A DNA stretch of 64,000 nt from Limnochordia bacterium (GTDB taxonomy: Bacteria > Bacillota > Limnochordia > DTU080), in assembly GCA_050951545.1 (NCBI GenBank), contig JBMNJG010000004.1, forward strand, positions 125,406 to 189,405, read 5' to 3'. The position numbers and the translations under genes are program-made. Below, in pieces: positions 12,307 through 41,666 of the stretch (position 1 is its first letter; each line of letters begins with the position of its first letter). The notes beneath the pieces were generated by a model that saw only the letters and a program-made list of their open reading frames with translations, was not told the DNA's origin and ran no database searches.

Positions 12307-14256
12307 GTGAAAGGGGAGCGTCGCTTGGCTCAGGTAGGTTCTGATGCGGTCGTGGCACGCAAGCGAGGGCGCCGCGGACGCGTGGCAGCGCTTGTGGGAG
12401 CATGGTTGGGGCTCGTGGTCTGGGCAGCGGCTAGTTACGCGCCTTTGGATCAGCTAGGCGTGGAACTCTATCGACCGTATTTCCTCCCCTGTGCTACTGT
12501 GCTATCGCTGTGGCTGCCCCTAAGCCGGGCAATTGATTGGGTGCGCACCCGTCGCGTAGAAAGCGGTGCAGTTTACCTGCTCTTGGCCGTCGGTTCGGTT
12601 CTGGCCGGGAGGTGGTCGGATGCGGTGCTTATTCTCAGTGTTGGGACGTCAGTGTCTGCACTCCGTGCCTCATTATGCGAGCGGGCTAGCCAGCCTGTTG
12701 AGATGTGGCAAGAGGTTTTGGATGCCGCTCAGGCTGCAGCGCAGACCTCCAGCCAAGTCACGGATGACGGTGGCCTCGCCACGGTGGTTGTCCCGACAGA
12801 CACGGTGGTCCCATATGATGGTTTCGTCTTGGGCGACGGGGCGTGGGTGGCCTCCTTCTGGGCAGAGTCTCCCACGGTCAGCCTAGAGCCCGAAGACCCA
12901 GTCTTTGCGGGTGATATCAACCTAGGTGATCCACTGAGTCTCGTGGTCGCTCGTAGCGGAGCTGACACGGTGCTCTCTCGCACGGTGGCCATGGGGCAAG
13001 CTGCTCTATGTCAGGGTGAGGGGGCGAATGTGCTGCTCTCTGCACTCAACAGGTGGTCCTTGGTGTGTACCATAGCAGCCGTGGTGATGGCCGTGGGTCT
13101 CCCCGTGCTGTGGGGCGCCTCCGTCAAAAGGGTATTGGTTAGAAGCATGAGTCTCGTGGCGCTAGCGATCCCTGGGGCTTGGTCTGTAGCTGCTGAACTG
13201 CCGCATGTCGCAGCAGTAGGGGCTGCTTTGCGCAGAGGCGTGATTCCTATGTACCAATCGGTTCTTAGTCGAGTTGCTCGGTTGCGAATGCTCGTGGTCG
13301 TGAATGTGACGACGATTACCAGTCGCCAGGCACTGGTCGTCGACGTACTGCCCCTGAAGCCGCAGGCGTGCGCCCCTGATGAACTGCTAACTGTGGCAGC
13401 CGCAGTAGAGACTGCGGCCAGGGCGAGCCATCCTTTTGCAAGAGCCATTCGCCGAGCATCTCGTAACGAAAAGCTTGCTTTGCCGCATGCTGAGCAAGGG
13501 AGGCAGTGGCCTGGTTTGGGTGTTTCAGCTCTCGTGGACGGGCACCATTGCCTAGTGGGCAATGAGGATCTGATGCGGCAACATGGGCTGAACACAGCTG
13601 CCTTAGATCATTTGGTCGCTCAGACGAGAGAGGATGCGTGTGTACCCATCTTCTGTGCCGCCGATGGCCACATCCTTGGCGTGCTAGGTATCAGCGAGAC
13701 GGAGTGTCAAGCGTGGCCGCGCACAAGTGCTCGACTGGAGAAACTCGGAGTGAAATCACTACTGCTCAGCAGTAGTGATTCGGACAGGCAGCAGCGTACT
13801 GCGTGGTTGCCCGCAAACAGCTGGGAAGTGACGCTGCTAGGTGGTCAGGAGCTGTCTACACTACGAGCTTGGGCAGGGCCTGGAGCCGTCATCGGTGTGG
13901 CTGCCGACGTTGACAGCGAACCTACGATGCTTCAGCAAGCTGATCTGGGCATCGGGCTAGGACCGATAGCGCTTCTGGGCGATGAAGGCCAGCTGGCGCT
14001 ACCCAGACGCAATCTTGGTGACCTTCCCTGGCTTATCATGCAGGCGAGGCGTTTGCGGAGGAGGGCTGTCGTGATCGGTCTTGCTGCAGTGCTTTCGCGC
14101 CTAGCGCTGGCAGTGATGGTATTGCGCGGCCACTTCGAGACTCTCCAAGTGGTGCTGTTCGATGGGGCGGCGGCCGTGATACTCACAGGGGCCGCTTGGC
14201 GTCTACTGGGACGTCGATCGCCCAGCATGCCTCGGCCTTCGGCAGCCAGCAAGTAG
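12307..14256 (+). CDS. Degenerate (pseudo-enzyme) P1B-type ATPase homolog; catalytic motifs lost
   Basis: Co-linear with heavy-metal P-type ATPases: TM6 CPC replaced by AIP, TGES by TVSL, DKTGT by NVTTIT, HP present as SHPFARAI, VDGxxxxVGN retained, TGDN by SSSD, GDGxND by ADVDSE. GTG start; start uncertain. Confidence 0.6.
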   Translation: MKGERRLAQVGSDAVVARKRGRRGRVAALVGAWLGLVVWAAASYAPLDQLGVELYRPYFLPCATVLSLWLPLSRAIDWVRTRRVESGAVYLLLAVGSVLAGRWSDAVLILSVGTSVSALRASLCERASQPVEMWQEVLDAAQAAAQTSSQVTDDGGLATVVVPTDTVVPYDGFVLGDGAWVASFWAESPTVSLEPEDPVFAGDINLGDPLSLVVARSGADTVLSRTVAMGQAALCQGEGANVLLSALNRWSLVCTIAAVVMAVGLPVLWGASVKRVLVRSMSLVALAIPGAWSVAAELPHVAAVGAALRRGVIPMYQSVLSRVARLRMLVVVNVTTITSRQALVVDVLPLKPQACAPDELLTVAAAVETAARASHPFARAIRRASRNEKLALPHAEQGRQWPGLGVSALVDGHHCLVGNEDLMRQHGLNTAALDHLVAQTREDACVPIFCAADGHILGVLGISETECQAWPRTSARLEKLGVKSLLLSSSDSDRQQRTAWLPANSWEVTLLGGQELSTLRAWAGPGAVIGVAADVDSEPTMLQQADLGIGLGPIALLGDEGQLALPRRNLGDLPWLIMQARRLRRRAVVIGLAAVLSRLALAVMVLRGHFETLQVVLFDGAAAVILTGAAWRLLGRRSPSMPRPSAASK

Positions 14257-14318: not shown

Positions 14319-15797
14319 TCAGGCATGAGGCCCGCACAGGGTGATTGCCTTGCGAATGCGCTCGAGGCAGCTCTGACGGCCTAGAATCTCCATGCTCTCG
14401 ACGAGCGGCGGGCTAACCAAGCGCCCTGTGATGGCGATGCGCAAGGGCTGGAAAGCATCCCTGGCCTTGACTTCAAGCTGCTCAGCGACACCCCGCACAG
14501 CCGCCTCTAGGTCGGTGGGCTGCCAGGGCGTGTGTGACAGCTTCTCCTCTAGAGTCATGAGAACTCGTTTTGCCTTGGCTGTCAGGGCCTTCTTCACAGC
14601 TTTGGGGTCGTACTGCGGTGGGCAGAAAAAGAAATCGGTGATGGCGCCGATTTCTGACAGCACCTTGATGCGCTCTTGTGCTAAGGCGACCACTTTTTCT
14701 AACCGCTCTAGTTCGATACCTTCGGGAGGCCCAGATAGGTATCCCGCTTTCTGCAGAAAGGGGACACAGGCTTGAGTGAGCTCGTCGATTGGCATCGAGC
14801 GGATGTAGTAGCCGTTGAGCCATTCGAGCTTTGTCAGATCGAAAATCGAGGGCGCTCTTGTGACCCGGTCGAGGCTGAATTCGGCTATCATGCGTTCGCG
14901 GCTTATCTCTTCGTTGCCGTCGACTGGTGACCAGCCCATGAGGACCAGGAAATTCAGCAAAGCTTCGGGCAGGAAACCCTTGTCGCGGTAGTCTCCGACG
15001 AAACTATCGCCGTGGCGTTTGCTGAGTTTCGTACGATCTGAGCCCAGGATGTGACCTACGTGAGCGATAACAGGCGGCTCTGCCCCCAGGGCTTCGTAGA
15101 TCAGGATCTGCTGAGGCGTGTTGCTGATGTGTCCCTCGCCTCGGATGACATGGGTGATGCGCATCTCAATGTCGTCAACGGCCACGGCGAAGTTATAGGT
15201 AGGTACACCGTTGCTGCGCACAATGATCGGGTCGGACATGTCATCGGTAGGGGTCTGTATCTGTCCTCGTAAAATGTCTTCGAAGCAGACCACGCTGCCA
15301 TCGGGAACGCGAAAGCGGATGGTTGGCTGGCGTCCCTCTCGCTCCAGAGCGGCCCTTTGGGTTGCACTCAGATGCAGACAGCGGCGGCTGTACGTGTATC
15401 CCGCGCCCTTCTCTTGCGCCTGGGCTCTCTCGGTAGCAAGCTCTTCTGGCGTGCAGTAGCAGAAGTACGCGTGATCCGATTCGATCAGGCGCTTGGCATA
15501 GCGATCGTAGATGCCTAGCCGCTCCATCTGCCGGTAGGGTCCATAGGCACCGCCTATGTCGGGGCCTTCATCCCAAGTTAGGCCGAGCCAGCGCATCTCA
15601 TTGTAGATCACGCTTTCCCATTCAGGTTTGGATCGCTCTTGGTCGGTATCTTCAAACCGCAGAATAAAAACGCCATTCTGACTGCGGGCAAACAGCCAGT
15701 TGAAAAGCGCTGTATGCAGGTTGCCGACGTGGATGGGCCCCGTGGGAGAAGGTGCCATGCGCACGCGGACCTGTGTCTCCTGTGCCACTCGTATCAC
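14319..15797 (-). CDS. gltX: Glutamate--tRNA ligase
   Basis: HIGH-region APSPTGPIHVGNLHTALFNWLFAR, with FILRFEDTD and a KLSKR-type motif. Confidence 0.9.
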   Translation of the reverse strand: MIRVAQETQVRVRMAPSPTGPIHVGNLHTALFNWLFARSQNGVFILRFEDTDQERSKPEWESVIYNEMRWLGLTWDEGPDIGGAYGPYRQMERLGIYDRYAKRLIESDHAYFCYCTPEELATERAQAQEKGAGYTYSRRCLHLSATQRAALEREGRQPTIRFRVPDGSVVCFEDILRGQIQTPTDDMSDPIIVRSNGVPTYNFAVAVDDIEMRITHVIRGEGHISNTPQQILIYEALGAEPPVIAHVGHILGSDRTKLSKRHGDSFVGDYRDKGFLPEALLNFLVLMGWSPVDGNEEISRERMIAEFSLDRVTRAPSIFDLTKLEWLNGYYIRSMPIDELTQACVPFLQKAGYLSGPPEGIELERLEKVVALAQERIKVLSEIGAITDFFFCPPQYDPKAVKKALTAKAKRVLMTLEEKLSHTPWQPTDLEAAVRGVAEQLEVKARDAFQPLRIAITGRLVSPPLVESMEILGRQSCLERIRKAITLCGPHA

Positions 15798-16142
15798 TCC
15801 TCAGAGTATCCTTCTACGTTGAAACATGGCAGGTGGTAGGTCACCATGCATGATTGTACCATACCGCAATACTGACGCGCTTGGTCTGCTTGCTTTCTGG
15901 CCGCTCCGAGAAAATCGAGTGATGCTGTACGGGTGCACGTCGGCGGCTGCTCTCAGTGTTCGCAGTTTGTGACACAAGCTTGCCACCGATAGTGTACGTT
16001 ACGGCGGTGTCAGGAAGCCTTATTCGAGGTTTAGCTCTGCCGATTTCTCGACATAGAGTCATTGCTATAGGAAGGATACTATGGAGGTCTAAGGGAAATG
16101 TGGAGGTGTAATAGGTAGTTATCAACTGAGGGGGTTGAGACA

Positions 16143-17480
16143 ATGGCGCGTCAGATTCGCTGGTGTTTGGCAGTATGCTTGGTGCTCGCTTTGGTCTGGA
16201 TACCAGGGGCCTTGGCGAAGGAACAGGTGGTCTTAAAGTGGACCACATGCTGTGGGCAGGTGGATCGCCACGAGCTGTTTCAGTCGTGGGCACGGCGCTA
16301 TGAGTCCCGTAATCCAGGAATAAAAGTCGAGTGGGAGTACCCTTCTGGTAGCTATGGGGCCGTATTGTTAACGCGAATCGTTGGGGGTGCGGGCCCTGAT
16401 GTGATGTGGATCGGAGGTGCCTACTCAGAGCTGGCCGACCTATTCGCCTCAGTTGACGACATGCGCACGCGCACTGGTGGGCCACTGCGCGATGTCATGC
16501 CTTCGGTGTTTCCCCTGTTCTCGTGGGGAGGGAAGCTAGGTGCTGCACCCTACGGGGCCAACACAGTGCCGTTCTTCATCAACCAGCGCCTCTTCGCTGA
16601 GGCAGGTCTCCAGGTACCGTCACCCAGCTGGACCTGGGATGATTTCCTGGTCTTGATCAAGCGTCTTACGGCGGATCTCGATGGCGATGGCGAGCCCGAC
16701 AGATGGGGCTTTGATATTCGTTCCGGTGGGTACCAAGGTACTGCGGTGTCGTGGGGGGGAGCACCGTTCACCCCGGACGGACGAAAGGTGGCCTTCAACA
16801 ACCCCATTACGGTTGGGGTTACGCAGATTATCGTGGATCTGGTGACCAACAAGCACGGGCCCTATCAGTTACCTGCAGGCCGGGGTGACTTCGCGGCCGT
16901 AGCTAGGTCAGGTGCGGCGGCCATTGTGGCGGGCGGTGTCTGGGGGGTTCCTGCTCTGCGTCAGTTGCCCGAGGATGAATGGGAGGGCATCATCTTCCCT
17001 GGTTATGAGTATCAGGGTGAGCGATATCACGGCACGTATCTCTCAGGAGAGGCGTGGGCCATCTCAAACACAACACCCTACCCAGCAGAGGCTCGGCGCT
17101 TTGTGGAGTTCTTGCTGGATAAGGAGCAGATGCGCGAGTTCGCTCGTCTGGGCGGCATCATCCCCACCCAGCAAGCGGTGGCTCGGGAGTTCTTCCACCC
17201 ATCGACCTCGAAGCCACAAAATATGGCGGCATTCTTGGATTGCCTCGAGGTGGGCAAGCCTCTCTGGAACACCCACCCCGCTGGTAATGAGGTGATTACC
17301 CGGTCAGGTACGGTCTGGTCAGACCTCTGGGCAGGTAGACTGCCTGCCATCACAGCTTACGAGCAGATGGAAGTGATTGGGAACGCCGTCTTGGCCGACT
17401 TTCTGGGCAAAGAAGCAGTAAGGTATTCTCTAGGCGGTCCGTCTCATTCTATAATGACAAGTATGGTTGACGCCTGCTGA
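16143..17480 (+). CDS. ABC transporter substrate-binding protein (family 1, sugar-type), copy 1 of array; divergent, C-terminus frameshifted relative to copies 2-4
   Basis: Signal peptide then KEQVVLKWTTCCGQ... Roughly 85-90% identity to copies 2-4 judged by eye. A 1-nt difference (tttctggg vs ttttggg) removes the canonical stop and extends the ORF 20 codons through the terminator hairpin. Confidence 0.7.
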   Translation: MARQIRWCLAVCLVLALVWIPGALAKEQVVLKWTTCCGQVDRHELFQSWARRYESRNPGIKVEWEYPSGSYGAVLLTRIVGGAGPDVMWIGGAYSELADLFASVDDMRTRTGGPLRDVMPSVFPLFSWGGKLGAAPYGANTVPFFINQRLFAEAGLQVPSPSWTWDDFLVLIKRLTADLDGDGEPDRWGFDIRSGGYQGTAVSWGGAPFTPDGRKVAFNNPITVGVTQIIVDLVTNKHGPYQLPAGRGDFAAVARSGAAAIVAGGVWGVPALRQLPEDEWEGIIFPGYEYQGERYHGTYLSGEAWAISNTTPYPAEARRFVEFLLDKEQMREFARLGGIIPTQQAVAREFFHPSTSKPQNMAAFLDCLEVGKPLWNTHPAGNEVITRSGTVWSDLWAGRLPAITAYEQMEVIGNAVLADFLGKEAVRYSLGGPSHSIMTSMVDAC

Positions 17481-17495
17481 TTAGCGGGCGTCAAC
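17466..17495 (+). terminator. Intrinsic-terminator-like hairpin after SBP copy 1 (gttgacgcctgc/gcgggcgtcaac, loop tgatta), followed by attatctcttt
   Basis: 12-bp stem with one G-U pair. Repeated identically at 18946..18975 and 20426..20455. Confidence 0.5.
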
Positions 17496-17623
17496 ATTAT
17501 CTCTTTGCATAGTTGCTAGACAATGGGGGTCGTAGGTAGAAGGAGATCAATAGAGTCGAAGGGAAACAGGGAGGTGAAATTGTCAGCTATCAAAGCTATC
17601 AGATCGAGGGGGGTTATCACAGA

Positions 17624-18901
17624 ATGACGCGTCCGATTCGCTGGTGTTTGGCACTGTACTTGGTGCTCGCTTTGGTTTGGATACCAGGGGCCTTGGCGAA
17701 GGAACAGGTGGTCTTGAAGTGGACCACATGCTGTGGGCAACTGGATCGTCACGAGCTGTTTCAGTCGTGGGCGCGCCGCTATGAATCTCGTAATCCGGGA
17801 GTTAAGGTGGAGTGGGAGTACCCTGCTGGGAGCTATGGGAACGTGTTGCTGACCCGGATCGTTGGCGGCGCGGGACCTGACGTCATGTGGATCGGGGGCG
17901 CCTACTCACAGTTAGCTGACCTATTCGCCTCTGTGGAAGACATGCGAACGCGCGCTGGGGGGCCGCTGCGTGAGGTCATGCCCCAGGTATTCCCTCTTTT
18001 CACTTGGGGAGGGAAGCTGGGTGCGGCACCTTACGGGGCGAACACGGTGCCGTTCTTTGTCAACCAACGCCTTTTCGCTGAAGCAGGTCTGAGAATACCT
18101 CCACCCAACTGGACCTGGGATGATTTCCTCGTCTTGGTCAAGCGTCTTACTGTGGATCTCGATGGCGATGGCCAGCCCGATCGATGGGGTTTTGACATCC
18201 GCTCCGGAGGATACCAGTTGACCGCGCTCTCCTGGGGAGGAGCACCCTTCTCGCCTGACGGGCGCAAGGTGGCCTTCAATAACCCCATCACGGTTGGGGC
18301 TACACAAACTCTCGCAGATCTAGCAAACAACAGACACGGCCCCTATCAGTTGCCAGCAGGCCGAGGTGACTTCGCGGCAGTGGCGAGGTCTGGCGTGGTG
18401 GCTGTCGTAGCGGGCGGTGTCTGGGGGGTTCCTGCTCTGCGTCAGTTGCCCGAGGATGAATGGGAGGGCATCGTCTTTCCTGCCTATGAATATCAGGGTG
18501 AGCGCTATCACGGCTCCTATCTGTCAGGTGAGGCGTGGGCGATCTCTAACACAACACCATACCCAGAAGAAGCACGGCGGTTCGTAGAGTTCCTGCTGGA
18601 GAAGGAGCAGATGCGTGAGTTCGCCCGTCTGGGCGGCATCATTCCGACCCAGCAGTCGGTGGCCCGGGAGTTCTTCCACCCATCGACCTCGAAGCCACAA
18701 AACATGGCGGCATTCTTGGATTGCCTCGAGGTGGGCAAGCCTCTATACAATATCCACCCCGCTGGAAATGACATCATCTCCCGGTCTGGTCCGGTCTGGT
18801 CAGAGCTGTGGGCAGGCAGAATGCCCGCCTCTGCGGCACTAGAACAGATGGAGGTGATCGGAAACGCCGTCTTGGCCGACTTTTGGGCAAAGAAGCAGTA
18901 A
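17624..18901 (+). CDS. ABC transporter substrate-binding protein (family 1), array copy 2
   Basis: Translation identical to copy 3. GGGGGG RBS. Secretory signal ALA|KEQ without a lipobox Cys. Confidence 0.75.
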   Translation: MTRPIRWCLALYLVLALVWIPGALAKEQVVLKWTTCCGQLDRHELFQSWARRYESRNPGVKVEWEYPAGSYGNVLLTRIVGGAGPDVMWIGGAYSQLADLFASVEDMRTRAGGPLREVMPQVFPLFTWGGKLGAAPYGANTVPFFVNQRLFAEAGLRIPPPNWTWDDFLVLVKRLTVDLDGDGQPDRWGFDIRSGGYQLTALSWGGAPFSPDGRKVAFNNPITVGATQTLADLANNRHGPYQLPAGRGDFAAVARSGVVAVVAGGVWGVPALRQLPEDEWEGIVFPAYEYQGERYHGSYLSGEAWAISNTTPYPEEARRFVEFLLEKEQMREFARLGGIIPTQQSVAREFFHPSTSKPQNMAAFLDCLEVGKPLYNIHPAGNDIISRSGPVWSELWAGRMPASAALEQMEVIGNAVLADFWAKKQ

Positions 18902-18945
18902 GGTATTCTCTAGGCGGTCCGTCTCATTCTATAATGACAAGTATG

Positions 18946-18975
18946 GTTGACGCCTGCTGATTAGCGGGCGTCAAC
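18946..18975 (+). terminator. Same hairpin, copy after SBP 2
   Basis: Identical sequence, part of the 1480-bp repeat. Confidence 0.5.
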
Positions 18976-19103
18976 ATTATCTCTTTGCATAGTTGCTAGA
19001 CAATGGGGGTCGTAGGTAGAAGGAGATCAATAGAGTCGAAGGGAAACAGGGAGGTGAAATTGTCAGCTATCAAAGCTATCAGATCGAGGGGGGTTATCAC
19101 AGA

Positions 19104-20381
19104 ATGACGCGTCCGATTCGCTGGTGTTTGGCACTGTACTTGGTGCTCGCTTTGGTTTGGATACCAGGGGCCTTGGCGAAGGAACAGGTGGTCTTGAAGT
19201 GGACCACATGCTGTGGGCAACTGGATCGTCACGAGCTGTTTCAGTCGTGGGCGCGCCGCTATGAATCTCGTAATCCGGGAGTTAAGGTGGAGTGGGAGTA
19301 CCCTGCTGGGAGCTATGGGAACGTGTTGCTGACCCGGATCGTTGGCGGCGCGGGACCTGACGTCATGTGGATCGGGGGCGCCTACTCACAGTTAGCTGAC
19401 CTATTCGCCTCTGTGGAAGACATGCGAACGCGCGCTGGGGGGCCGCTGCGTGAGGTCATGCCCCAGGTATTCCCTCTTTTCACTTGGGGAGGGAAGCTGG
19501 GTGCGGCACCTTACGGGGCGAACACGGTGCCGTTCTTTGTCAACCAACGCCTTTTCGCTGAAGCAGGTCTGAGAATACCTCCACCCAACTGGACCTGGGA
19601 TGATTTCCTCGTCTTGGTCAAGCGTCTTACTGTGGATCTCGATGGCGATGGCCAGCCCGATCGATGGGGTTTTGACATCCGCTCCGGAGGATACCAGTTG
19701 ACCGCGCTCTCCTGGGGAGGAGCACCCTTCTCGCCTGACGGGCGCAAGGTGGCCTTCAATAACCCCATCACGGTTGGGGCTACACAAACTCTCGCAGATC
19801 TAGCAAACAACAGACACGGCCCCTATCAGTTGCCAGCAGGCCGAGGTGACTTCGCGGCAGTGGCGAGGTCTGGCGTGGTGGCTGTCGTAGCGGGCGGTGT
19901 CTGGGGGGTTCCTGCTCTGCGTCAGTTGCCCGAGGATGAATGGGAGGGCATCGTCTTTCCTGCCTATGAATATCAGGGTGAGCGCTATCACGGCTCCTAT
20001 CTGTCAGGTGAGGCGTGGGCGATCTCTAACACAACACCATACCCAGAAGAAGCACGGCGGTTCGTAGAGTTCCTGCTGGAGAAGGAGCAGATGCGTGAGT
20101 TCGCCCGTCTGGGCGGCATCATTCCGACCCAGCAGTCGGTGGCCCGGGAGTTCTTCCACCCATCGACCTCGAAGCCACAAAACATGGCGGCATTCTTGGA
20201 TTGCCTCGAGGTGGGCAAGCCTCTATACAATATCCACCCCGCTGGAAATGACATCATCTCCCGGTCTGGTCCGGTCTGGTCAGAGCTGTGGGCAGGCAGA
20301 ATGCCCGCCTCTGCGGCACTAGAACAGATGGAGGTGATCGGAAACGCCGTCTTGGCCGACTTTTGGGCAAAGAAGCAGTAA
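19104..20381 (+). CDS. ABC transporter substrate-binding protein (family 1), array copy 3
   Basis: Identical to copy 2 at the sampled nucleotides and in the full translation. Confidence 0.75.
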   Translation: MTRPIRWCLALYLVLALVWIPGALAKEQVVLKWTTCCGQLDRHELFQSWARRYESRNPGVKVEWEYPAGSYGNVLLTRIVGGAGPDVMWIGGAYSQLADLFASVEDMRTRAGGPLREVMPQVFPLFTWGGKLGAAPYGANTVPFFVNQRLFAEAGLRIPPPNWTWDDFLVLVKRLTVDLDGDGQPDRWGFDIRSGGYQLTALSWGGAPFSPDGRKVAFNNPITVGATQTLADLANNRHGPYQLPAGRGDFAAVARSGVVAVVAGGVWGVPALRQLPEDEWEGIVFPAYEYQGERYHGSYLSGEAWAISNTTPYPEEARRFVEFLLEKEQMREFARLGGIIPTQQSVAREFFHPSTSKPQNMAAFLDCLEVGKPLYNIHPAGNDIISRSGPVWSELWAGRMPASAALEQMEVIGNAVLADFWAKKQ

Positions 20382-20425
20382 GGTATTCTCTAGGCGGTCC
20401 GTCTCATTCTATAATGACAAGTATG

Positions 20426-20455
20426 GTTGACGCCTGCTGATTAGCGGGCGTCAAC
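20426..20455 (+). terminator. Same hairpin, copy after SBP 3
   Basis: Identical sequence, part of the 1480-bp repeat. Confidence 0.5.
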
Positions 20456-20583
20456 ATTATCTCTTTGCATAGTTGCTAGACAATGGGGGTCGTAGGTAGA
20501 AGGAGATCAATAGAGTCGAAGGGAAACAGGGAGGTGAAATTGTCAGCTATCAAAGCTATCAGATCGAGGGGGGTTATCACAGA

Positions 20584-21861
20584 ATGACGCGTCCGATTCG
20601 CTGGTGTTTGGCACTGTACTTGGTGCTCGCTTTGGTTTGGATACCAGGGGCCTTGGCGAAGGAACAGGTGGTCTTGAAGTGGACCACATGCTGTGGGCAA
20701 CTGGATCGTCACGAGCTGTTTCAGTCGTGGGCGCGCCGCTATGAATCTCGTAATCCGGGAGTTAAGGTGGAGTGGGAGTACCCTGCTGGGAGCTATGGGA
20801 ACGTGTTGCTGACCCGGATCGTTGGCGGCGCGGGACCTGACGTCATGTGGATCGGGGGCGCCTACTCACAGTTAGCTGACCTATTCGCCTCTGTGGAAGA
20901 CATGCGAACGCGCGCTGGGGGGCCGCTGCGTGAGGTCATGCCCCAGGTATTCCCTCTTTTCACTTGGGGAGGGAAGCTGGGTGCGGCACCTTACGGGGCG
21001 AACACGGTGCCGTTCTTTGTCAACCAACGCCTTTTCGCTGAAGCAGGTCTGAGAATACCTCCACCCAACTGGACCTGGGATGATTTCCTCGTCTTGGTCA
21101 AGCGTCTTACTGTGGATCTCGATGGCGATGGCCAGCCCGATCGATGGGGTTTTGACATCCGCTCCGGAGGATACCAGTTGACCGCGCTCTCCTGGGGAGG
21201 AGCACCCTTCTCGCCTGACGGGCGCAAGGTGGCCTTCAATAACCCCATCACGGTTGGGGCTACACAAACTCTCGCAGATCTAGCAAACAACAGACACGGC
21301 CCCTATCAGTTGCCAGCAGGCCGAGGTGACTTCGCGGCAGTGGCGAGGTCTGGCGTGGTGGCTGTCGTAGCGGGCGGTGTCTGGGGGGTTCCTGCTCTGC
21401 GTCAGTTGCCCGAGGATGAATGGGAGGGCATCGTCTTTCCTGCCTATGAATATCAGGGTGAGCGCTATCACGGCTCCTATCTGTCAGGTGAGGCGTGGGC
21501 GATCTCTAACACAACACCATACCCAGAAGAAGCACGGCGGTTCGTAGAGTTCCTGCTGGAGAAGGAGCAGATGCGTGAGTTCGCCCGTCTGGGCGGCATC
21601 ATTCCGACCCAGCAGTCGGTGGCCCGGGAGTTCTTCCACCCATCGACCTCGAAGCCACAAAACATGGCGGCATTCTTGGATTGCCTCGAGGTGGGCAAGC
21701 CTCTATACAATATCCACCCCGCTGGAAATGACATCATCTCCCGGTCTGGTCCGGTCTGGTCAGAGCTGTGGGCAGGCAGAATGCCCGCCTCTGCGGCACT
21801 AGAACAGATGGAGGTGATCGGAAACGCCGTCTTGGCCGACTTTTGGGCGCAGAAAAAGTAG
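20584..21861 (+). CDS. ABC transporter substrate-binding protein (family 1), array copy 4
   Basis: Identical to copies 2 and 3 except the last 4 residues (WAQKK vs WAKKQ). Repeat identity ends at 21848. Confidence 0.75.
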   Translation: MTRPIRWCLALYLVLALVWIPGALAKEQVVLKWTTCCGQLDRHELFQSWARRYESRNPGVKVEWEYPAGSYGNVLLTRIVGGAGPDVMWIGGAYSQLADLFASVEDMRTRAGGPLREVMPQVFPLFTWGGKLGAAPYGANTVPFFVNQRLFAEAGLRIPPPNWTWDDFLVLVKRLTVDLDGDGQPDRWGFDIRSGGYQLTALSWGGAPFSPDGRKVAFNNPITVGATQTLADLANNRHGPYQLPAGRGDFAAVARSGVVAVVAGGVWGVPALRQLPEDEWEGIVFPAYEYQGERYHGSYLSGEAWAISNTTPYPEEARRFVEFLLEKEQMREFARLGGIIPTQQSVAREFFHPSTSKPQNMAAFLDCLEVGKPLYNIHPAGNDIISRSGPVWSELWAGRMPASAALEQMEVIGNAVLADFWAQKK

Positions 21862-21905
21862 CATCGTGTGCCTGTTGTCTGCGGCTTTATGATGGGAAGC
21901 ACGCG

Positions 21906-21933
21906 CATAGGCGCCCGGGTTCGGGCGCCTATG
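21906..21933. promoter_or_regulatory. Perfect 12-bp-arm palindrome (cataggcgcccg ggtt cgggcgcctatg) between SBP copy 4 and the Gfo/Idh/MocA gene
   Basis: Exact inverted repeat with no downstream T-run. Candidate operator or RNA stem rather than a terminator. Confidence 0.35.
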
Positions 21934-21963
21934 CCTACCAACCAGGAAGAAAGGGATGAAAGT

Positions 21964-22974
21964 ATGAGTAGGGTCCGTCTGGCAGTGGTTGGTTGCGGGG
22001 CGATGTTCAATACTCACGCTCAGGGTCTGAAGCAGCTGCTCGATCGTGTTGAGATCACCTATGCAGTCGATGCTGTTGAGGATAGGGCGCAGAAAGCGGC
22101 AGCGCAGTTTCCAGGCACCAAGGCCGCTACAGACTACCGACAGGTACTCGACGAAGTCGATGCGGTGATGCTGGTTCTGCCATACCACCTTCACCATCCG
22201 GTAGCCAAGGCATGCCTCGGTGCTGGCAAGCATGTGCTCCTAGAGAAACCCATGGCCAACAGCGAGGCAGAATGCCTGGATCTAATCGAAACAGCGGAAA
22301 GGTCTGGCCAGGTGTTCATGATCGCCTACTGCATGCGCTTCCATCCTCTGGTGCTCGCCATGAAAAAGCTACTGGATGAGAGAGCCTATGGCGATGTGTT
22401 CCAGGTCTCGATCTGGACGGAGCAGCTGACCATTCGTCCGCCTGATCACTGGTCACACCTACCATCAACGGGTGGGGGGCAGCTGTTTACGCATGGGTGT
22501 CACTACATCGACATCCTCCTCTGGCTCTTGGGTCGGCCACTGCGGGGCACACATATCGGTACGGAATTTGGCACCCCTTGGATGAGCAGAGAAGGGACCA
22601 GCAACGTCTGCCTCGAGTTCGAAGGTGGTCGGCTGGCTTACCACTTCGGGACATGGGGCGCTAGAGGCACGCGCCTAGGGTACGCTTTCCATGCCCACTG
22701 CACTGACGGCATGATAGAAGCAGATATCCGACACAGTCGACTAGTCGTGCACCGAAGAGGTCAGCAGATCGTGCTTGTTGAGAGCGCAGCTGGCAAACAG
22801 ACTGAAAATGAGATGCATCACTTTCTCGAGTGCATTGAGACAAGCAGGCGGCCGCTGACCGACGGGCCCGGAAGTCTGCAGGGTCTGAGAGTGATCTGGC
22901 GACTGTATGAGGCTGAACGGCAACAGACAGTGGCCGATCTGCGTGGATTGGGTCTTGACGAGTACCAACGGTAA
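21964..22974 (+). CDS. Gfo/Idh/MocA family NAD(P)-dependent oxidoreductase
   Basis: Opens MSRVRLAVVGCGAMFNTHAQ with a Rossmann N-terminus. Start reset to ATG 21964 with AGGAAGAAAGGG RBS. Confidence 0.75.
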   Translation: MSRVRLAVVGCGAMFNTHAQGLKQLLDRVEITYAVDAVEDRAQKAAAQFPGTKAATDYRQVLDEVDAVMLVLPYHLHHPVAKACLGAGKHVLLEKPMANSEAECLDLIETAERSGQVFMIAYCMRFHPLVLAMKKLLDERAYGDVFQVSIWTEQLTIRPPDHWSHLPSTGGGQLFTHGCHYIDILLWLLGRPLRGTHIGTEFGTPWMSREGTSNVCLEFEGGRLAYHFGTWGARGTRLGYAFHAHCTDGMIEADIRHSRLVVHRRGQQIVLVESAAGKQTENEMHHFLECIETSRRPLTDGPGSLQGLRVIWRLYEAERQQTVADLRGLGLDEYQR

Positions 22975-23100
22975 ACTTTCTGTGGCTCTATGACAACCGC
23001 ACGGACAACAACATTGCCAGAGGCTTGTTCTCACGCCCAGAGATAAGGAACACGGGTACGATCGGGATTTCGTCATGCACGAGCTAGGGAGGGAGAGTCT

Positions 23101-24402
23101 ATGACGTTATTCATGATGTTAACCGACAGGGCGAGATGGGGAACCGGACAGCGAATATTTCGACTGATGCTTGCTATGATGTTGTTGCTGCACATAGCCA
23201 CTGGGACAGTGAACAGTGCGGATAAGACAAAGGTGACGATGAGTACATGGGGATCACCGGAGTTCTGGGATCTGCACGAGGAAGGCATTGCCGAGTTTGA
23301 GAAGTTGAACCCACAGATAGATGTCGAGCTTCTGCGCCTACCCTGTTGCGATAAGCAATACTGGGAAGCGGTTATGGTCAGAAGTGCGGCAGGGCAGATG
23401 CCCGATGTCTTTCGCATCTGGTCAACCCAACAGACAGACATCTACCGCTCTGGGCTGGCCTTGGATATTTCCTCATATGTTTCTAAGGATGCCACGTATT
23501 TCAAGCAGTTTTTCGTTCCTCCGCTAGGCCTGGGCAAGCGCACCTATGCCCTCGCTGATGTGGTAATAGTCAACTATCTCCATACCAATGAGGACATGAT
23601 GGCCAAAGTGGGATTGGAGTCGCCAGCCGATCTGTACGTCAAGGGAGCGTGGGACTACCGCGCGCTCGAGGCGACGTCGCGTCGCGTAGCGCAACGCGAC
23701 GAGCACGGCAATCCGAAGGCCTTAGGGATGATCATGATCGTGCCTGACGTCTTTTTCGTTGGTGCGTGGGTGCAGATCTTTGGCGGCAGCTGGTTTGATG
23801 CTGAATTCCGTGCTTCTCAGTTTAACCAGCCTCCGGCTCTGCAAGCTCTGACGTGGTTGCAGGAGCGCTTGTCGGAGGGTAGCTTCGTCGCTAACGGTCG
23901 GTACGCTTCCTTGGAGAAGGCTGGGGAATGGGGATTGTGGTTTCAGTGGAACCTGCCCCCGGCGCCTGGTGGAGCCTATGGCAACATGCAAGCTGGCTAT
24001 GTGCCATTCCCGCGAGGACCAGCTCGTGACACGACGAGCTTCCGCGTGGAGCCGTGGGCGGTGGCTGCAGCCAGTAAGCATCCGCAAGAGGCGTATGAAC
24101 TCATCAAGTACATGGCAGGTCCGGGAATACGCTTCATGATCGGAAAGCAGGGGAAGGTGCCCAACTATCGCCCATCCATGGGGCTTCTGAATGCTCACGC
24201 CTCTCGCTTCGCCTACGGACTTGGCCCGCTACAGCAGCAACTCGACAAGATGGTTCCTCAGCCTGTGCCTCCTGAGCAGCGGCGGATATATGACACTCTG
24301 TTCCCCGCACTGCGTAGCATCGCAGAGGGCCAGATAGGCGCACAAGCTGCGATGGATGATGTAGCACGCCAGGTAGACGCCATCCTGCAATCAGTTAACT
24401 GA
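23101..24402 (+). CDS. ABC transporter substrate-binding protein (family 1, carbohydrate)
   Basis: Signal peptide plus SBP_bac_1-like composition. GGGAGGGAG RBS. Confidence 0.7.
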   Translation: MTLFMMLTDRARWGTGQRIFRLMLAMMLLLHIATGTVNSADKTKVTMSTWGSPEFWDLHEEGIAEFEKLNPQIDVELLRLPCCDKQYWEAVMVRSAAGQMPDVFRIWSTQQTDIYRSGLALDISSYVSKDATYFKQFFVPPLGLGKRTYALADVVIVNYLHTNEDMMAKVGLESPADLYVKGAWDYRALEATSRRVAQRDEHGNPKALGMIMIVPDVFFVGAWVQIFGGSWFDAEFRASQFNQPPALQALTWLQERLSEGSFVANGRYASLEKAGEWGLWFQWNLPPAPGGAYGNMQAGYVPFPRGPARDTTSFRVEPWAVAAASKHPQEAYELIKYMAGPGIRFMIGKQGKVPNYRPSMGLLNAHASRFAYGLGPLQQQLDKMVPQPVPPEQRRIYDTLFPALRSIAEGQIGAQAAMDDVARQVDAILQSVN

Positions 24403-24436
24403 TGAAGCAAGCACATACAAAGGGGCTGAACACACT

Positions 24437-26737
24437 GTGGCTTCCGATCTCGGGGAGAATGCTTTGCTGGAACACACGAAATCAAGCTGTGCTTTTAGGA
24501 CAGGATCCGGTGTCTTTGTGCGCATCGAGGCCATCTCGCCACACATCATGCGCTGGCGTCTATCCCATGACGGGAAGTGGAGGCAGTCCCCGCTTAACAG
24601 GTATGGGTTTGTCAGTGAGAATGTGGGGAGTGACAGTCCGCACATTGTGCTCACCGAGCGCCCGGATGCCATCCAGCTGGCCACTGAAGTGTTGCAGGTG
24701 CGCACAGAACGCGCCTCTGGGCGGATGCAGTTCTGTAACGCCTCGGGGCGCCGTCTACTCCAGGGAAGTGCTACCGACGGTTTCAGGGTAAGCGCCGAGG
24801 GCCATGTGGCCAGCTTTGACATTGGCCCAGATGAGCTTTTTTACGGTTTCGGTGATCAGAATCGAGAACGGTTAGAACACCGAGGCACAAGTCCTCGCAT
24901 GTGGGTGACCAATGTCAACCGCTACATCCCCATCCCCTTCTTCATGAGCAACCGAGGGTATGGGATGCTCGTCAACACCACCCGAGATCTCGCTTTCGAT
25001 ATAGGAAGTAAGTCGGCCGATCGTTTGACCTTCACAGTCATCGGTACCGATGTCGACTTCTACTTCATCTACGGACCGGAGCCTGCGGCCATTCTCGATC
25101 ATTACACTCGATTGACGGGAAGACCCACGCTACCGCCAAAGTGGTCATTCGGTCTGTGGTTTGTCTGTCGCACGCAGGCGAATGATCATGAAGTGATTAC
25201 CGATGCTTATACTTTCCGTCGCGAAGGTATTCCTTGCGATGCCATCATGCTGGAGCCCGGTTGGATGCAGACCTTCTACGACGCTTCTGTGAAGAAGGAT
25301 TGGCACGTAGAACGTTTTCCCATTCCATCGTATAGCCGTACGGGTCCTGACAACTTCCCTGCGGCACTCAAGAGAATGGGCTTCAAAATCGGTCTATGGG
25401 AATGCAATGACTATGATCTGTCCATAGAGGCTGAGCGCCGACTCATGAGCCAAGAAGAGATGGATGCCCGAGACCAGGATCGCGGGGTGGACGACGGCAC
25501 AAGCGAAGCGATCTACTTGGAGCCCGATGAGCATCTACGTATGCCTAGACGGCTTGATTCGCTGACTCAGAAGAACGAACCGTGGTTTGAGCATCACAAG
25601 AAGTTCATCGATCAGGGCGTGGACTTTTTCAAGCAGGATGGGGCCTATCAAGTTCTGGATCACCCGGACCGTCTCTGGGCGAACGGAATGACAGATGCTG
25701 AGATGCACAATTTGTACCCCCTGTTGTACTCGCAGCAAATGTACGAGGGCTTCAAGGAGTATACGAAGCGGCGACCCTGTTGCTTTACGCCAGCTGGTTG
25801 GGCTGGTTTGCAGCGCTACACGGGCACCTGGACCGGAGACACAGGTGGTGGCCCAGGCACTATTCTGGCTTGTCTCAATTTGGCTATGAGCGGCCATCAC
25901 CTCGTCACGTGTGATATGCAGGTAACGAGCAAGGAGGGCATCCACTACGGTTTTCTCCTTCCTTGGGCACAGGTCAACAGCTGGAACTACTGGCGGCATC
26001 CGTGGCTTCTCGGCGATGAGCTCGGGCCTATCTTCAAGGAGTATGCAGAACTGCGCTACCGCCTTCTGCCATACATCTATAGCTGCGCTTATGAAGCCCA
26101 TCTGACTGGCATGCCACTGATGCGACCGATGCCCCTGGCCTTTGCCACCGAGCCAGAATCTCATAACTATCTACGGCAGTGGATGTTTGGCCCGGCGCTC
26201 TTAGTGGGGGCCTTCTGCGATGAGCTATATCTGCCAGGCAGTGGAGTCTGGCACGATTACTGGACGGGAGAGTGCATTCAGGCGCCGTGTACCATTGTCT
26301 ACACTGCACCGCCCAATCGAGGCGGAGCTCTGTTTGTCAAGGGCGGTACGCTTCTTCCAATGGCGCCGCCTCAGCCTTATGTGGGGTCAGCTCCAGCGAA
26401 CACGATGACACTCGAGGTATTCCCCGGCGCTGACGGCCATTTCCGGCTATATGACGATGACGGGGTCAGTCTGGACTATGAACACGGTCGTTACGCGGTG
26501 ACGCCATTCTGCGTGAAGCAGGAGACCAATGCTCTGACCATCGGTATTGGCGAGCGTCAGGGAAGCTATTCTGGCATGCCTGACCAGGTGCTTTATACGC
26601 TGGAGGTTCACATGCCAGAGCAGCCCGCGCGCGTGAGCACAGATGCTGGCGAAGCCAAGTGGTGCCACAAGGATGGTCTGTTGCGGGTGGATCTGGGTGC
26701 AGTGGGCCGCAAGGGATGTGTGTGCAAAATCATGTAG
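24437..26737 (+). CDS. Glycoside hydrolase family 31 (alpha-glucosidase/alpha-xylosidase-like)
   Basis: 766 aa carrying the GH31-type HNLYPLL motif and KQDGAYQV region. GTG start. Confidence 0.7.
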   Translation: MASDLGENALLEHTKSSCAFRTGSGVFVRIEAISPHIMRWRLSHDGKWRQSPLNRYGFVSENVGSDSPHIVLTERPDAIQLATEVLQVRTERASGRMQFCNASGRRLLQGSATDGFRVSAEGHVASFDIGPDELFYGFGDQNRERLEHRGTSPRMWVTNVNRYIPIPFFMSNRGYGMLVNTTRDLAFDIGSKSADRLTFTVIGTDVDFYFIYGPEPAAILDHYTRLTGRPTLPPKWSFGLWFVCRTQANDHEVITDAYTFRREGIPCDAIMLEPGWMQTFYDASVKKDWHVERFPIPSYSRTGPDNFPAALKRMGFKIGLWECNDYDLSIEAERRLMSQEEMDARDQDRGVDDGTSEAIYLEPDEHLRMPRRLDSLTQKNEPWFEHHKKFIDQGVDFFKQDGAYQVLDHPDRLWANGMTDAEMHNLYPLLYSQQMYEGFKEYTKRRPCCFTPAGWAGLQRYTGTWTGDTGGGPGTILACLNLAMSGHHLVTCDMQVTSKEGIHYGFLLPWAQVNSWNYWRHPWLLGDELGPIFKEYAELRYRLLPYIYSCAYEAHLTGMPLMRPMPLAFATEPESHNYLRQWMFGPALLVGAFCDELYLPGSGVWHDYWTGECIQAPCTIVYTAPPNRGGALFVKGGTLLPMAPPQPYVGSAPANTMTLEVFPGADGHFRLYDDDGVSLDYEHGRYAVTPFCVKQETNALTIGIGERQGSYSGMPDQVLYTLEVHMPEQPARVSTDAGEAKWCHKDGLLRVDLGAVGRKGCVCKIM

Positions 26738-26759
26738 TAGAAGTAGGGGAGGACTAGTC

Positions 26760-28037
26760 ATGAGGATGATCGGGCGAAAGAGCACGGCTTGTCGTATTCT
26801 TATGGTCTTCGCAGTGGTGTTTTCCAGTGTACTGGCTCAAGGGGCTAAGGTGCAACTCGTACACTTCACGTACTCGGGCCATGGCGAGCGATGGCAGGCG
26901 TGGCTGGGGGCCATCGCGAAGGATTTCGAGGCTGCTACAGGTATTGGCGTAAGGGTAGAGGTGTCGATGAGCAGCGGCGACTACCAGCCCAAGCTGTTGA
27001 CAATGGTGGCTGGTGGAGTGGCGCCCGATGTCACTGATGCTCATCCCATGCTGGCGGCACCTTTCATCGCTCAGGACATTTTCGAAGACCTGGGCCCGTA
27101 CATCAAGCGAGACAAGGTGCCGTTGGAGCGGATACCTCCTGCGATTGTCAGAGGGGTACAGACACCTGATGGTGTGATGTGGGGTCTCCCAGTCAGCGTC
27201 TACCCGGTCGTTACGTTCTTCAATGCCGATATGTTTGCAGAAGCCGGAATAGCCAACCCTATTCAGCTTGGCGAAAACTGGACCTGGGAAACGGCAACCA
27301 CGAGTGCTCAACGGCTGACTGTTGATGCGGACCGGGATGGCGTGCCCGAACGCTATGGTCTCAACGCTATCTCCGCACGCTATGAACAGCAGGTTCATCA
27401 GGCAGGCGGCACTCTCTACGATCGCCTCGTCTATCCTACAAACAGCCGCTTCAACACGCCACCAGTTCAAACTGCACTCCAATGGATTCAGTCTCTATAC
27501 GTTGACCGACTGGCATCAACTAGCGGCAATGTGCAGGTGTATCGTGGCAATGCTGCGTTTAGCGTGACAGAAGGCCCAGGTTTTATCTCGGCATACTACC
27601 AAGACGTCCCCTTTAGCTGGGATATCGCCGTTCAGCCCAAGGGCCCTGCCAATCGCGCCGCACGCGTCAACCCTGATGGTTTTCAGATCTTGGCAGCTAG
27701 TCAACACAAAGATGCCGCATGGAAGTGGATCCATTTTCTGACTACGAGTGTGGATAACCAACTGGAGTTGGTAAGATACACTAGCCGCATGCCCGCTCTG
27801 AGGGAGGCCATGCTGCGTTACCCGAAAGTGAGTACGGGAAAGCAACCGGATAACTGGTATGCGCTGGTTGATACAGCCTTCGATCCCGACGGCTATGCCG
27901 CCTACGTAATCCCCAACGCCACGGTCATCGATCCTGTGGTAAACGCGGTGCTTAACCGGATATGGCGGGGCGAGATAGCCGTGGCCACTGCGCTGGAGCA
28001 GATCGACCAACAGGTGAACGCATTGCTTCGGCCATAG
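26760..28037 (+). CDS. ABC transporter substrate-binding protein (family 1)
   Basis: Opens MRMIGRKSTACRILMVFAVVFSSVLAQG (signal peptide) and is SBP-like thereafter. Start reset to ATG 26760 with GGGGAGG RBS. Confidence 0.7.
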   Translation: MRMIGRKSTACRILMVFAVVFSSVLAQGAKVQLVHFTYSGHGERWQAWLGAIAKDFEAATGIGVRVEVSMSSGDYQPKLLTMVAGGVAPDVTDAHPMLAAPFIAQDIFEDLGPYIKRDKVPLERIPPAIVRGVQTPDGVMWGLPVSVYPVVTFFNADMFAEAGIANPIQLGENWTWETATTSAQRLTVDADRDGVPERYGLNAISARYEQQVHQAGGTLYDRLVYPTNSRFNTPPVQTALQWIQSLYVDRLASTSGNVQVYRGNAAFSVTEGPGFISAYYQDVPFSWDIAVQPKGPANRAARVNPDGFQILAASQHKDAAWKWIHFLTTSVDNQLELVRYTSRMPALREAMLRYPKVSTGKQPDNWYALVDTAFDPDGYAAYVIPNATVIDPVVNAVLNRIWRGEIAVATALEQIDQQVNALLRP

Positions 28038-28115
28038 GCCTGCAGGCGAAGCAAGCGCGGCTAGAGAAGCAGAACGGCAGGGTTAACCCGTGGGCCAGTT
28101 GAATGGGGGCATACA

Positions 28116-40518: not shown

Positions 40519-40593
40519 TGTAGTCTCGGGGTGTGTTGGGCAGCTGCGTGCTGCGAACCAGATACCGAGCAGCAAGAAAGCGAGGTGCGGTCT

Positions 40594-41646: not shown

Positions 41647-41666
41647 CGGACTGAGGAGGCGTTCAC

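What the first reader, a model, noticed from the sequence alone, without database searches (positions are those of the whole stretch)
16143..21861. Four tandem SBP genes; three sit in perfect 1480-bp direct repeats
Copies 2-4 of a family-1 solute-binding protein gene, each with its own leader, RBS and terminator hairpin, repeat with 100% identity at a 1480-bp period (17405-21848). A roughly 85-90% identical, older copy 1 lies upstream. Perfect kilobase-scale tandem triplication is unusual in a finished bacterial chromosome. It points to very recent adaptive gene amplification (dosage of a scavenging SBP), ongoing RecA-mediated expansion and contraction, or an assembly artefact. Each unit carries a terminator, so copies would be transcribed individually.
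Basis: seen in the sequence. Interest (0 to 1): 0.7.

Follow-up and report, generated by a model that had tools for sequence, protein, structure and literature searches.

The report
Recent tandem amplification of a sugar-binding-protein gene
A gene for a periplasmic sugar-binding protein sits in three perfectly identical head-to-tail copies next to an older sister gene, a real and recent gene amplification made by unequal recombination between the two sister genes; it is a clear natural example of a well-known process.

Summary
Window 17404-21848 is an exact direct repeat of period 1480 (three units plus 5 nt, no mismatches). It carries three 425-aa family-1 solute-binding-protein (SBP) genes. 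An older paralogue lies upstream (84.7% nt, 87% aa).

The unit boundary lies inside the gene's 3' end. Copies 2 and 3 are chimeras: a young-type body joined to copy 1's last codons, terminator hairpin and leader. The array therefore arose by unequal exchange between the tails of copy 1 and the original copy 2 (now copy 4), then expanded on the 1480-nt repeat.

- The novel junction occurs in assemblies from seven other samples.
- A different 304-kb metagenome contig (99.9% identical) has the same 1+3 array.
- A strain 0.4% diverged reads through with only 1+1.
- A related lineage has two diverged copies, and two related species have one.
- The 3' end of copy 1 exists in four recombinant haplotypes, so the locus is recombinationally active.
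- The window's own haplotype carries a +1 frameshift that may be a consensus artefact.

An artefact in the duplication itself is very unlikely. The copy number of three rests on two long contigs. A dosage benefit is inferred, not shown. The host is an uncultured Limnochordia-like Bacillota. No ABC permease gene lies in the 64 kb. This is a known kind of event and of modest interest.

The parts
16143..17480 (+). SBP copy 1, the older paralogue. It reads as 445 aa in this window because one extra nucleotide in GACTTTCTGGGC (17398-17409) shifts the frame over the last codons. Other assemblies encode 425 aa ending FWAKKQ.
   Evidence: exact 445-aa product not on record
17382..17408 (+). Exchange region. 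A short patch of imperfect homology between the tails of copy 1 and the young copy (17-nt identical block, two differences, then TGGGC). The exact repeat starts at 17404.
17404..18883 (+). Amplified unit 1: last 18 nt of an SBP gene in copy-1 form, terminator hairpin, leader and RBS, then young-type SBP body.
18884..20363 (+). Amplified unit 2, identical to unit 1.
20364..21843 (+). Amplified unit 3, identical to unit 1. It is followed by TGGGC (21844-21848), after which the native copy-2 end and downstream DNA begin.
17624..18901 (+). SBP copy 2 (425 aa), a chimeric gene: young body plus the copy-1-type last four codons (AKKQ*).
19104..20381 (+). SBP copy 3, identical to copy 2.
20584..21861 (+). 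SBP copy 4, the original second paralogue with its native end (AQKK*).
17466..17495 (+). Terminator-like hairpin of copy 1 (13-bp stem). It is repeated at 18946-18975 and 20426-20455. An orthologous hairpin lies between the two copies of the related lineage L119.
17606..17613 (+). GAGGGGGG ribosome-binding site 10 nt before the ATG of copy 2. It is repeated at 19086-19093 and 20566-20573. Copy 1 has GAGGGGG at 16128-16134.
   Evidence: read from the sequence
21905..21934 (+). A different 13-bp hairpin after copy 4 with no U tract. The Gfo/Idh/MocA gene starts at 21964.
14319..15788 (-). gltX (glutamyl-tRNA synthetase), the conserved left flank of the locus in all relatives.
21964..28037 (+). 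Lineage-specific block of Gfo/Idh/MocA, SBP5, GH31 and SBP6. It lies between the array and the ancestral right flank, the GH109-like Gfo gene at 28116-29372.

Best explanation
This is a genuine, evolutionarily very recent tandem duplication-amplification (a 'gene accordion') of the second of two old paralogous sugar SBP genes, in an uncultured Limnochordia-like diderm Bacillota bacterium. Step 1 (shown by comparison): an ancestral single SBP gene between gltX and a GH109-like Gfo gene duplicated long ago, giving copy 1 and copy 2. Both have been kept under purifying selection. Step 2 (shown by junction anatomy): an unequal exchange between the 3' tail of copy 1 on one chromatid and the 3' tail of copy 2 on the other duplicated the segment 'copy-1 end + terminator + leader + copy-2 body'. 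The apparent exchange point is confined to the 5 nt TGGGC within a short patch of imperfect homology. This created a chimeric gene and a 1480-nt perfect direct repeat. Step 3 (inferred from established GDA genetics): RecA-type unequal crossing-over on the perfect repeat added a third unit. The same machinery also produces gene-conversion tracts into copy 1's tail. Consequence (inferred): each unit carries its own leader, RBS and terminator hairpin, so the cell has three identical expression units plus the older paralogue. This should raise the periplasmic amount of this binding protein about three-fold. In type I ABC importers the SBP must be in large excess over the transporter, so higher SBP dosage plausibly improves capture of a scarce oligosaccharide. 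Persistence of the array in several samples is consistent with, but does not prove, selection for dosage.
For: Repeat and genes:
- Exact 4445-nt repeat.
- Copies 2 and 3 end like copy 1 of other assemblies (FWAKKQ) and copy 4 ends differently (FWAQKK).

Junction in other assemblies:
- The junction 48-mer is present in L001 (x3), L005, L006, L008, L009, L010 (x2) and L011, from seven JGI samples. It is absent from L122, which has only the native end.
- The independent 304-kb contig Ga0534105_00374 is 99.89% identical, has 8 SNPs outside the array, and shows the same 1+3 gene order.
- Nearly all short-read contigs break at the array.
- L122 (48 differences over 11.5 kb, 9 SNPs in its young copy) reads through copy 1, one young copy and the downstream genes.

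Evolutionary history:
- Related lineage L119/L120 has two tandem copies: a is 91% identical to copy 1, b is 85% to the young type, and a to b is 78%.
- Two related species have gltX, one SBP, then the Gfo gene.
- dN/dS between copy 1 and the young type is 0.10.
- Copy 1's tail has four haplotypes with different old-to-young switch points. The shared stretches at the switches are only 8 nt, too short to be k-mer chimeras.

Expression signals and literature:
- Hairpin, leader and RBS are present in each unit.
- The accordion model and RecA dependence are described in PMC7360770.
- A nutrient-uptake locus amplified with a competitive benefit is reported in PMC5004866.
- A 10-200-fold SBP excess is needed in type I importers (PMC12094219).
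Against: - No reads were available, so the copy number of three rests on two long contigs whose independence (different samples, different tail haplotype, 8 SNPs) is inferred.
- L122's 1+1 state could be a collapsed repeat.
- No promoter was identified in the intergenic region by consensus scan, so separate transcription and a three-fold dosage are assumptions.
- No permease or ATPase partner is encoded in the 64 kb, so the transport context of the SBP is unknown.
- The ligand is unknown: closest PDB relatives are about 20% identical.
- The apparent exchange point has only 5 nt of perfect identity, so the first duplication may have been RecA-independent.
Confidence: 0.8

Rival explanations
1. 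The amplification is real but selectively neutral or transient. It would be accordion noise that happens to be at high frequency in the sampled population, with no benefit from extra SBP.
For: Tandem amplifications arise and collapse stochastically at high rates without selection (PMC7360770; PMC11721125). Nothing here measures expression or fitness. A 1+1 strain coexists in related samples.
Against: Perfect 1.5-kb tandem repeats are expected to segregate quickly without selection. Yet the same 1+3 state is seen in two assemblies that differ by SNPs and by tail haplotype. The junction also recurs in seven samples. Both paralogues are under purifying selection.
Confidence: 0.3
2. The array is older than it looks. 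In this reading three copies have existed for a long time and are kept identical by continual gene conversion (concerted evolution), not by a recent expansion.
For: Gene conversion is demonstrably active at this locus: three different conversion tracts reach into copy 1's tail. The first 100 nt of copy 1 and the young type are 93% identical, against 71% to the copy-1 orthologue. The array is identical between two strains that differ elsewhere.
Against: A strain only 0.4% diverged has a single young copy carrying 9 private SNPs. There are zero differences over 2 x 1480 nt in both long assemblies. Conversion has not homogenised copy 1 (dS 0.65).
Confidence: 0.1
3. Assembly artefact. The true genome would have one young copy, or a different number, and the assembler inflated or mis-set the count.
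For: Perfect repeats are a classic source of copy-number error. The window's copy-1 tail has an odd +1 indel exactly at the repeat boundary. That indel looks like a consensus mixture of two haplotypes (old GA-TTTCTGGGC, young GACTTT-TGGGC, window GACTTTCTGGGC), and its 445-aa product is not on record anywhere.
Against: The chimeric junction exists in seven other samples' contigs, so at least two young copies are real. A second long contig from another sample, with a different tail haplotype, gives the same count. A 4.4-kb array is easily spanned by single long reads (general knowledge). Outside the tail there are no indels between the two long assemblies over about 17 kb.
Confidence: 0.07

Closest known systems
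Gene duplication-amplification ('gene accordions') of tandem paralogue arrays, e.g. the csa1 tandem-lipoprotein locus of Staphylococcus aureus USA300 (PMC7360770)
   Same: Both are arrays of similar secreted or envelope protein genes. Recombination between paralogues changes copy number, close strains differ in copy number, perfect repeats allow further expansion and contraction, and dosage is expected to scale with copies.
   Different: Here copy-number dynamics are inferred from metagenome contigs, not measured. The organism is uncultured. The amplified gene is a sugar SBP and not an immunogenic lipoprotein. RecA dependence is untested.
isd heme-uptake locus duplication and amplification in Staphylococcus lugdunensis HKU09-01 (PMC5004866)
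   Same: Both are natural isolates or populations carrying a tandem duplication of a nutrient-acquisition locus. In isd, higher dosage of binding proteins gives an advantage when the nutrient is limiting.
   Different: The isd unit is a whole multi-gene locus with an experimentally shown benefit. Here a single 1.48-kb gene unit is amplified, its transporter partner is not in the unit, and the benefit is only inferred.
CUT1-type oligosaccharide-binding proteins of type I ABC importers (e.g. AbnE 6rjy, RafE 2i58, Tlet_1705 5ci5)
   Same: The protein matches Pfam SBP_bac_1 and SBP_bac_8, is about 425 aa, has an N-terminal signal peptide, and its best sequence and fold matches are all oligosaccharide SBPs.
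   Different: Identity is only about 20%. No NCBIfam equivalog matches. The gene is never next to permease genes in any lineage examined, and the ligand is unknown.

Membership tests
Tandem gene duplication-amplification (GDA) | Head-to-tail direct repeats of an identical unit | tested here: met
   Three units of 1480 nt with 0 mismatches at 17404-21848.
Tandem gene duplication-amplification (GDA) | A novel join-point sequence that exists only in amplified genomes | tested here: met
   The join of young tail, TGGGC and copy-1-type end is present twice in the window. It occurs in contigs of seven other samples and is absent from the 1+1 contig L122.
Tandem gene duplication-amplification (GDA) | Copy number differs among very close relatives (expansion and contraction) | tested here: inconclusive
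   The window and the 304-kb contig show 1+3, and L122 at 99.6% identity shows 1+1. L122 is a short contig and collapse cannot be excluded without read depth.
Tandem gene duplication-amplification (GDA) | RecA-dependent instability of the array | not testable with these tools
   This needs a cultured strain or a recA mutant. The only indirect support is four recombinant tail haplotypes.
Tandem gene duplication-amplification (GDA) | Gene dosage raises product level and gives a selectable phenotype | not testable with these tools
   No transcript, protein or fitness data are available. Per-unit leader, RBS and hairpin are present.
Bacterial extracellular solute-binding protein family 1 (PF01547), CUT1 sugar SBP | Pfam SBP_bac_1 match above the gathering score | tested here: met
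   106.6 bits against a cut-off of 26, E 3.2e-30. SBP_bac_8 scores 93.2 bits.
Bacterial extracellular solute-binding protein family 1 (PF01547), CUT1 sugar SBP | Export signal and two-lobed periplasmic binding-protein fold | tested here: inconclusive
   The N-terminus MTRPIRWCLALYLVLALVWIPGALA|KEQ looks like a signal-peptidase-I signal without a lipobox (read). This fits a diderm Limnochordia host. The AF2 model is of low confidence (pLDDT 65), although all top Foldseek hits are oligosaccharide SBPs.
Bacterial extracellular solute-binding protein family 1 (PF01547), CUT1 sugar SBP | Encoded with its cognate ABC permeases and ATPase | tested here: not met
   No BPD_transp_1 or ABC_tran hit among about 39 ORFs of 200 aa or more in the 64 kb. 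Orthologues in L012, L013, L126 and L127 are also stand-alone. This is common for SBPs but leaves the partner unknown.
Bacterial extracellular solute-binding protein family 1 (PF01547), CUT1 sugar SBP | Binds a defined sugar ligand | not testable with these tools
   The closest solved relatives are about 20% identical and bind diverse oligosaccharides.

The most novel reading that the evidence does not exclude
This SBP family is encoded as a stand-alone gene, away from any ABC permease, in every lineage examined. It may therefore not be a conventional importer subunit. It could instead be a highly abundant periplasmic binding or sequestering protein, or a sensor partner, whose amount is itself the selected trait. 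In that case the natural population would tune the amount by an actively expanding and contracting gene accordion, visible as coexisting 1+1 and 1+3 states and multiple conversion haplotypes.
Probability: 0.1. Interest if true: 0.55.

Novelty: new member of a known kind. Interest (0 to 1): 0.3.

Why it matters
Tandem amplifications are thought to be a main fast route of bacterial adaptation, but they are mostly documented in cultured pathogens under antibiotic or laboratory selection. Here the whole path can be read from environmental assemblies of an uncultured diderm Firmicute: one gene, then an old duplicate, then an unequal exchange, then a perfect three-unit array, with coexisting conversion haplotypes. 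If read depth and expression confirm it, this would be a clean natural case of dosage tuning of a nutrient-capture protein. It would also be a useful test locus for how well metagenome assemblers handle kilobase tandem repeats. It does not reveal a new kind of system.

Tried and rejected
- Tandem Repeats Finder reported nothing because its longest period is 500. The repeat was instead defined by direct self-comparison.
- An exact 35-nt intergenic pattern found no match in metagenome contigs. The protein-based scan of that collection returned only the same two related species, so no extra copy-number variants came from there.
- The window's 445-aa copy-1 product is not on record.
- Rfam gave no family for the leader or the intergenic region.
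- NCBIfam gave no family for any of the SBPs.
- The consensus promoter scan found no + strand promoter in the intergenic region. I did not pursue promoter prediction, because sigma-70 consensus may not apply to this phylum.
- The AlphaFold model built from an 11-sequence alignment was of low confidence, so I drew no ligand inference from it beyond 'oligosaccharide SBP-like'.
- Contigs L004, L121 and L125 join array DNA to inverted neighbouring DNA. I treated them as chimeras and did not use them.
- Logan and JGI records carry no coverage values in the files provided, so depth-based copy number could not be computed.
- Paper searches for tandem amplification of solute-binding proteins found nothing specific.
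- I considered an IS- or transposon-mediated amplification and rejected it. There are no other repeats or inverted repeats of 60 nt or more in the window, and the junction lies inside the genes.
Full report
**1. The observation**

A direct self-comparison shows one exact run at period 1480, from 17404 to 21848 (4445 nt, three units plus 5 nt, no mismatch). The repeat finder independently gives three 100% copies and a fourth at 87% with spacings of 1481, 1480 and 1480. Tandem Repeats Finder missed the array only because its longest period is 500.

Four ORFs occupy the region: 16143-17480 (445 aa) and 17624-18901, 19104-20381 and 20584-21861 (425 aa each). All match Pfam SBP_bac_1 and SBP_bac_8 far above the gathering scores. 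Copy 1 is 87% identical in protein. It differs at 193 of the first 1260 nt, with dS 0.65 and dN/dS 0.10. It is therefore an old paralogue under purifying selection, not a decaying relic.

Each of the three intergenic stretches holds a 13-bp GC-rich hairpin (-25.5 kcal/mol, z -5.4) followed by a moderately U-rich tail. Each also holds a leader of about 100 nt that is conserved with the region upstream of copy 1 and of orthologues, and a GAGGGGGG ribosome-binding site. No other repeat of 60 nt or more exists in the 64 kb.

**2. Anatomy of the junction**

The unit boundary is not intergenic. It lies 18 nt before the stop codon.

- Copies 2 and 3 end ...GACTTT TGGGC AAAGAAGCAGTAA (FWAKKQ*).
- Copy 4 ends ...GACTTT TGGGC GCAGAAAAAGTAG (FWAQKK*).
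- In other assemblies copy 1 ends ...GATTTC TGGGC AAAGAAGCAGTAA (FWAKKQ*).

Copies 2 and 3 are thus chimeras: a young-type body up to the T before TGGGC, then copy 1's last codons, its terminator hairpin and the leader. This is exactly the product expected from an unequal exchange between the tail of copy 1 and the tail of the original second copy, now copy 4.

The apparent exchange point is confined to the 5 nt TGGGC. It lies within a patch of imperfect homology (a 17-nt identical block, two differences, then TGGGC), at the end of about 1.26 kb of 85% homeology. The first duplication may therefore have been homeologous or microhomology-mediated. The later step to three copies would use the 1480-nt perfect repeat. 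That last step is inferred from the accordion model (PMC7360770), not shown here.

**3. Is it real?**

The exact proteins were looked up in public assemblies. A 304-kb JGI metagenome contig (3300053716, Ga0534105_00374) is 99.89% identical to the window over 21 kb and has the same gene order with 1+3 SBP genes. It is not the same sequence. Eight SNPs lie outside the array, and copy 1's last 75 nt or so are young-type there. Its exact repeat is accordingly 4520 nt long, and all spacings are 1480.

The junction 48-mer occurs in contigs from seven JGI samples: L001, L005, L006, L008, L009, L010 and L011. Almost all short-read contigs of this organism stop at or inside the array, as expected for a true repeat.

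One contig, L122 (3300065795), comes from a strain 0.4% diverged, with 48 differences over 11.5 kb and nine SNPs in its young copy. It reads straight through copy 1, one young copy and the downstream genes, and it lacks the junction. This is probably the un-amplified 1+1 state, though collapse cannot be excluded without read depth.

The duplication is therefore real beyond reasonable doubt. The count of three rests on two long contigs. No read data or coverage values were available.

**4. Ongoing recombination**

The 3' end of copy 1 exists in four haplotypes:

- H1 is fully old-type (L008, L009, L122, L123, L124).
- H2 (L010) switches to young-type between window positions 17360 and 17363.
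- H3 (the 304-kb contig) switches between 17330 and 17336.
- H4 (this window) is old-type up to GCCGA and then reads CTTTCTGGGC.

H4 carries both the young-specific C and the old-specific C (old GA-TTTCTGGGC, young GACTTT-TGGGC). This adds one nucleotide, shifts the frame, and extends the ORF by 20 codons through the terminator hairpin.

The shared stretches at the H2 and H3 switch points are only 8 nt. These haplotypes are therefore not de Bruijn-graph chimeras but gene-conversion tracts of different length from a young unit into copy 1.

H4 is either a patchy heteroduplex repair product or a consensus artefact from mixed haplotypes. Its 445-aa product is not on record anywhere. The frameshift should not be over-interpreted.

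**5. History of the locus**

The closest genomes in the species-representative collection are a Limnochordia MAG (83% protein identity) and 'Clostridia bacterium DTU080' (81%). Both have gltX, one SBP, a GH109-like Gfo gene, a methyltransferase and RNR. They lack the window's block of Gfo, SBP5, GH31 and SBP6 (21964-28037).

A closer lineage seen in two Logan runs (L119, L120) has two tandem copies. Copy a is 91% identical to copy 1, and copy b is 85% identical to the young type. The two are 78% identical to each other, and an orthologous hairpin lies between them.

The order of events is therefore: single gene, then an old duplication before the split of these lineages, then a strain-level amplification of the second copy. 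Within the window lineage the first 100 nt of copy 1 and the young type are 93% identical, against 71% to the copy-1 orthologue. This suggests an older 5' conversion as well.

**6. What the protein is**

Sequence and fold comparisons place it among CUT1-type oligosaccharide-binding proteins such as AbnE, RafE and Tlet_1705, at about 20% identity. The AlphaFold model is of low confidence (pLDDT 65). No NCBIfam family matches.

The N-terminus looks like a signal-peptidase-I signal without a lipobox (read). This fits a periplasmic protein in a diderm Firmicute lineage such as Limnochordia (PMC10665443). SpoIIE and SleB in the window confirm a Bacillota host.

No ABC permease or ATPase gene is present among the roughly 39 ORFs of 200 aa or more that were scanned. 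More distant orthologues (57-60% identity) are also stand-alone genes among housekeeping genes. The conserved neighbour is a GH109-like NAD-dependent Gfo/Idh/MocA protein. The ligand and the transporter partner remain unknown.

**7. Mechanism and meaning**

The best-supported reading is a recent duplication-amplification that triples the expression units of one sugar-binding protein.

- Shown: the repeat, the chimeric junction, its presence in many samples, the comparative history, and the conversion haplotypes.
- Inferred: RecA dependence, separate transcription of each unit, a three-fold dosage, and a benefit.

The benefit is plausible because type I ABC importers need the SBP in 10-200-fold excess over the transporter, and lowering it impairs uptake (PMC12094219). 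Amplification of a nutrient-capture locus also gives a competitive advantage in S. lugdunensis (PMC5004866). Because perfect tandem repeats are unstable without selection (PMC11721125), persistence of 1+3 in two distinguishable strains leans towards selection. A neutral transient state or concerted evolution of an older array cannot be excluded.

**8. Verdict**

The event is a new, well-documented member of a well-known class, not a new kind of system. Interest is modest (0.3). The only less ordinary aspect is that this SBP family is consistently encoded without a transporter, which leaves room for a non-canonical role (probability about 0.1).

Noticed in passing
window 30085-33432 (-); L013 13402-15972: The ribonucleotide reductase large subunit carries an intein with a LAGLIDADG homing-endonuclease domain. 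The orthologue in Clostridia bacterium DTU080 aligns contiguously without it.
   Followed up: partly
window 16143-29372 and 40531-42569: The window holds six SBP genes, four Gfo/Idh/MocA genes and a GH31 glycosidase, but no ABC permease or ATPase gene anywhere in the 64 kb. Orthologues of the amplified SBP at 57-60% identity are also stand-alone among housekeeping genes (L126, L127).
   Followed up: partly
window 21964-28037: The block of Gfo/Idh/MocA, SBP5, GH31 and SBP6 is absent from the syntenic locus of two related species, where the SBP is directly followed by the GH109-like Gfo gene. It is a lineage-specific insertion of unknown origin. SBP5 and SBP6 are at most 27% identical to the amplified SBP.
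   Followed up: partly
window 16060-16100 and 17540-17575 (repeated in each unit); L012, L013, L119 upstream regions: A purine-rich motif (AGAAGGAAATC..GAGTCGAAGGGAAA) lies about 65-100 nt upstream of the SBP start codon. It is conserved across paralogues and species. It has no Rfam match and may be an operator or 5' UTR element.
   Followed up: partly
L004, L121 (=L136), L125, L142: Several small JGI assemblies join array DNA to neighbouring DNA in inverted orientation, for example copy 4 to part of Gfo to inverted gltX. These look like amplification or assembly chimeras, but real inversions between the SBP paralogues were not excluded.
   Followed up: no
window 34168-36084 (+): An ADP-dependent phosphofructokinase/glucokinase domain is fused to an N-terminal YgaP-like transmembrane segment, an unusual architecture for this mostly archaeal-type kinase.
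   Followed up: no
window 12307-14256 (+): A 649-aa protein matches P-type heavy-metal ATPase models only weakly and far below their cut-offs. It is conserved in position in all relatives (62-65% identity). It may be a divergent or degenerate P-type ATPase.
   Followed up: no
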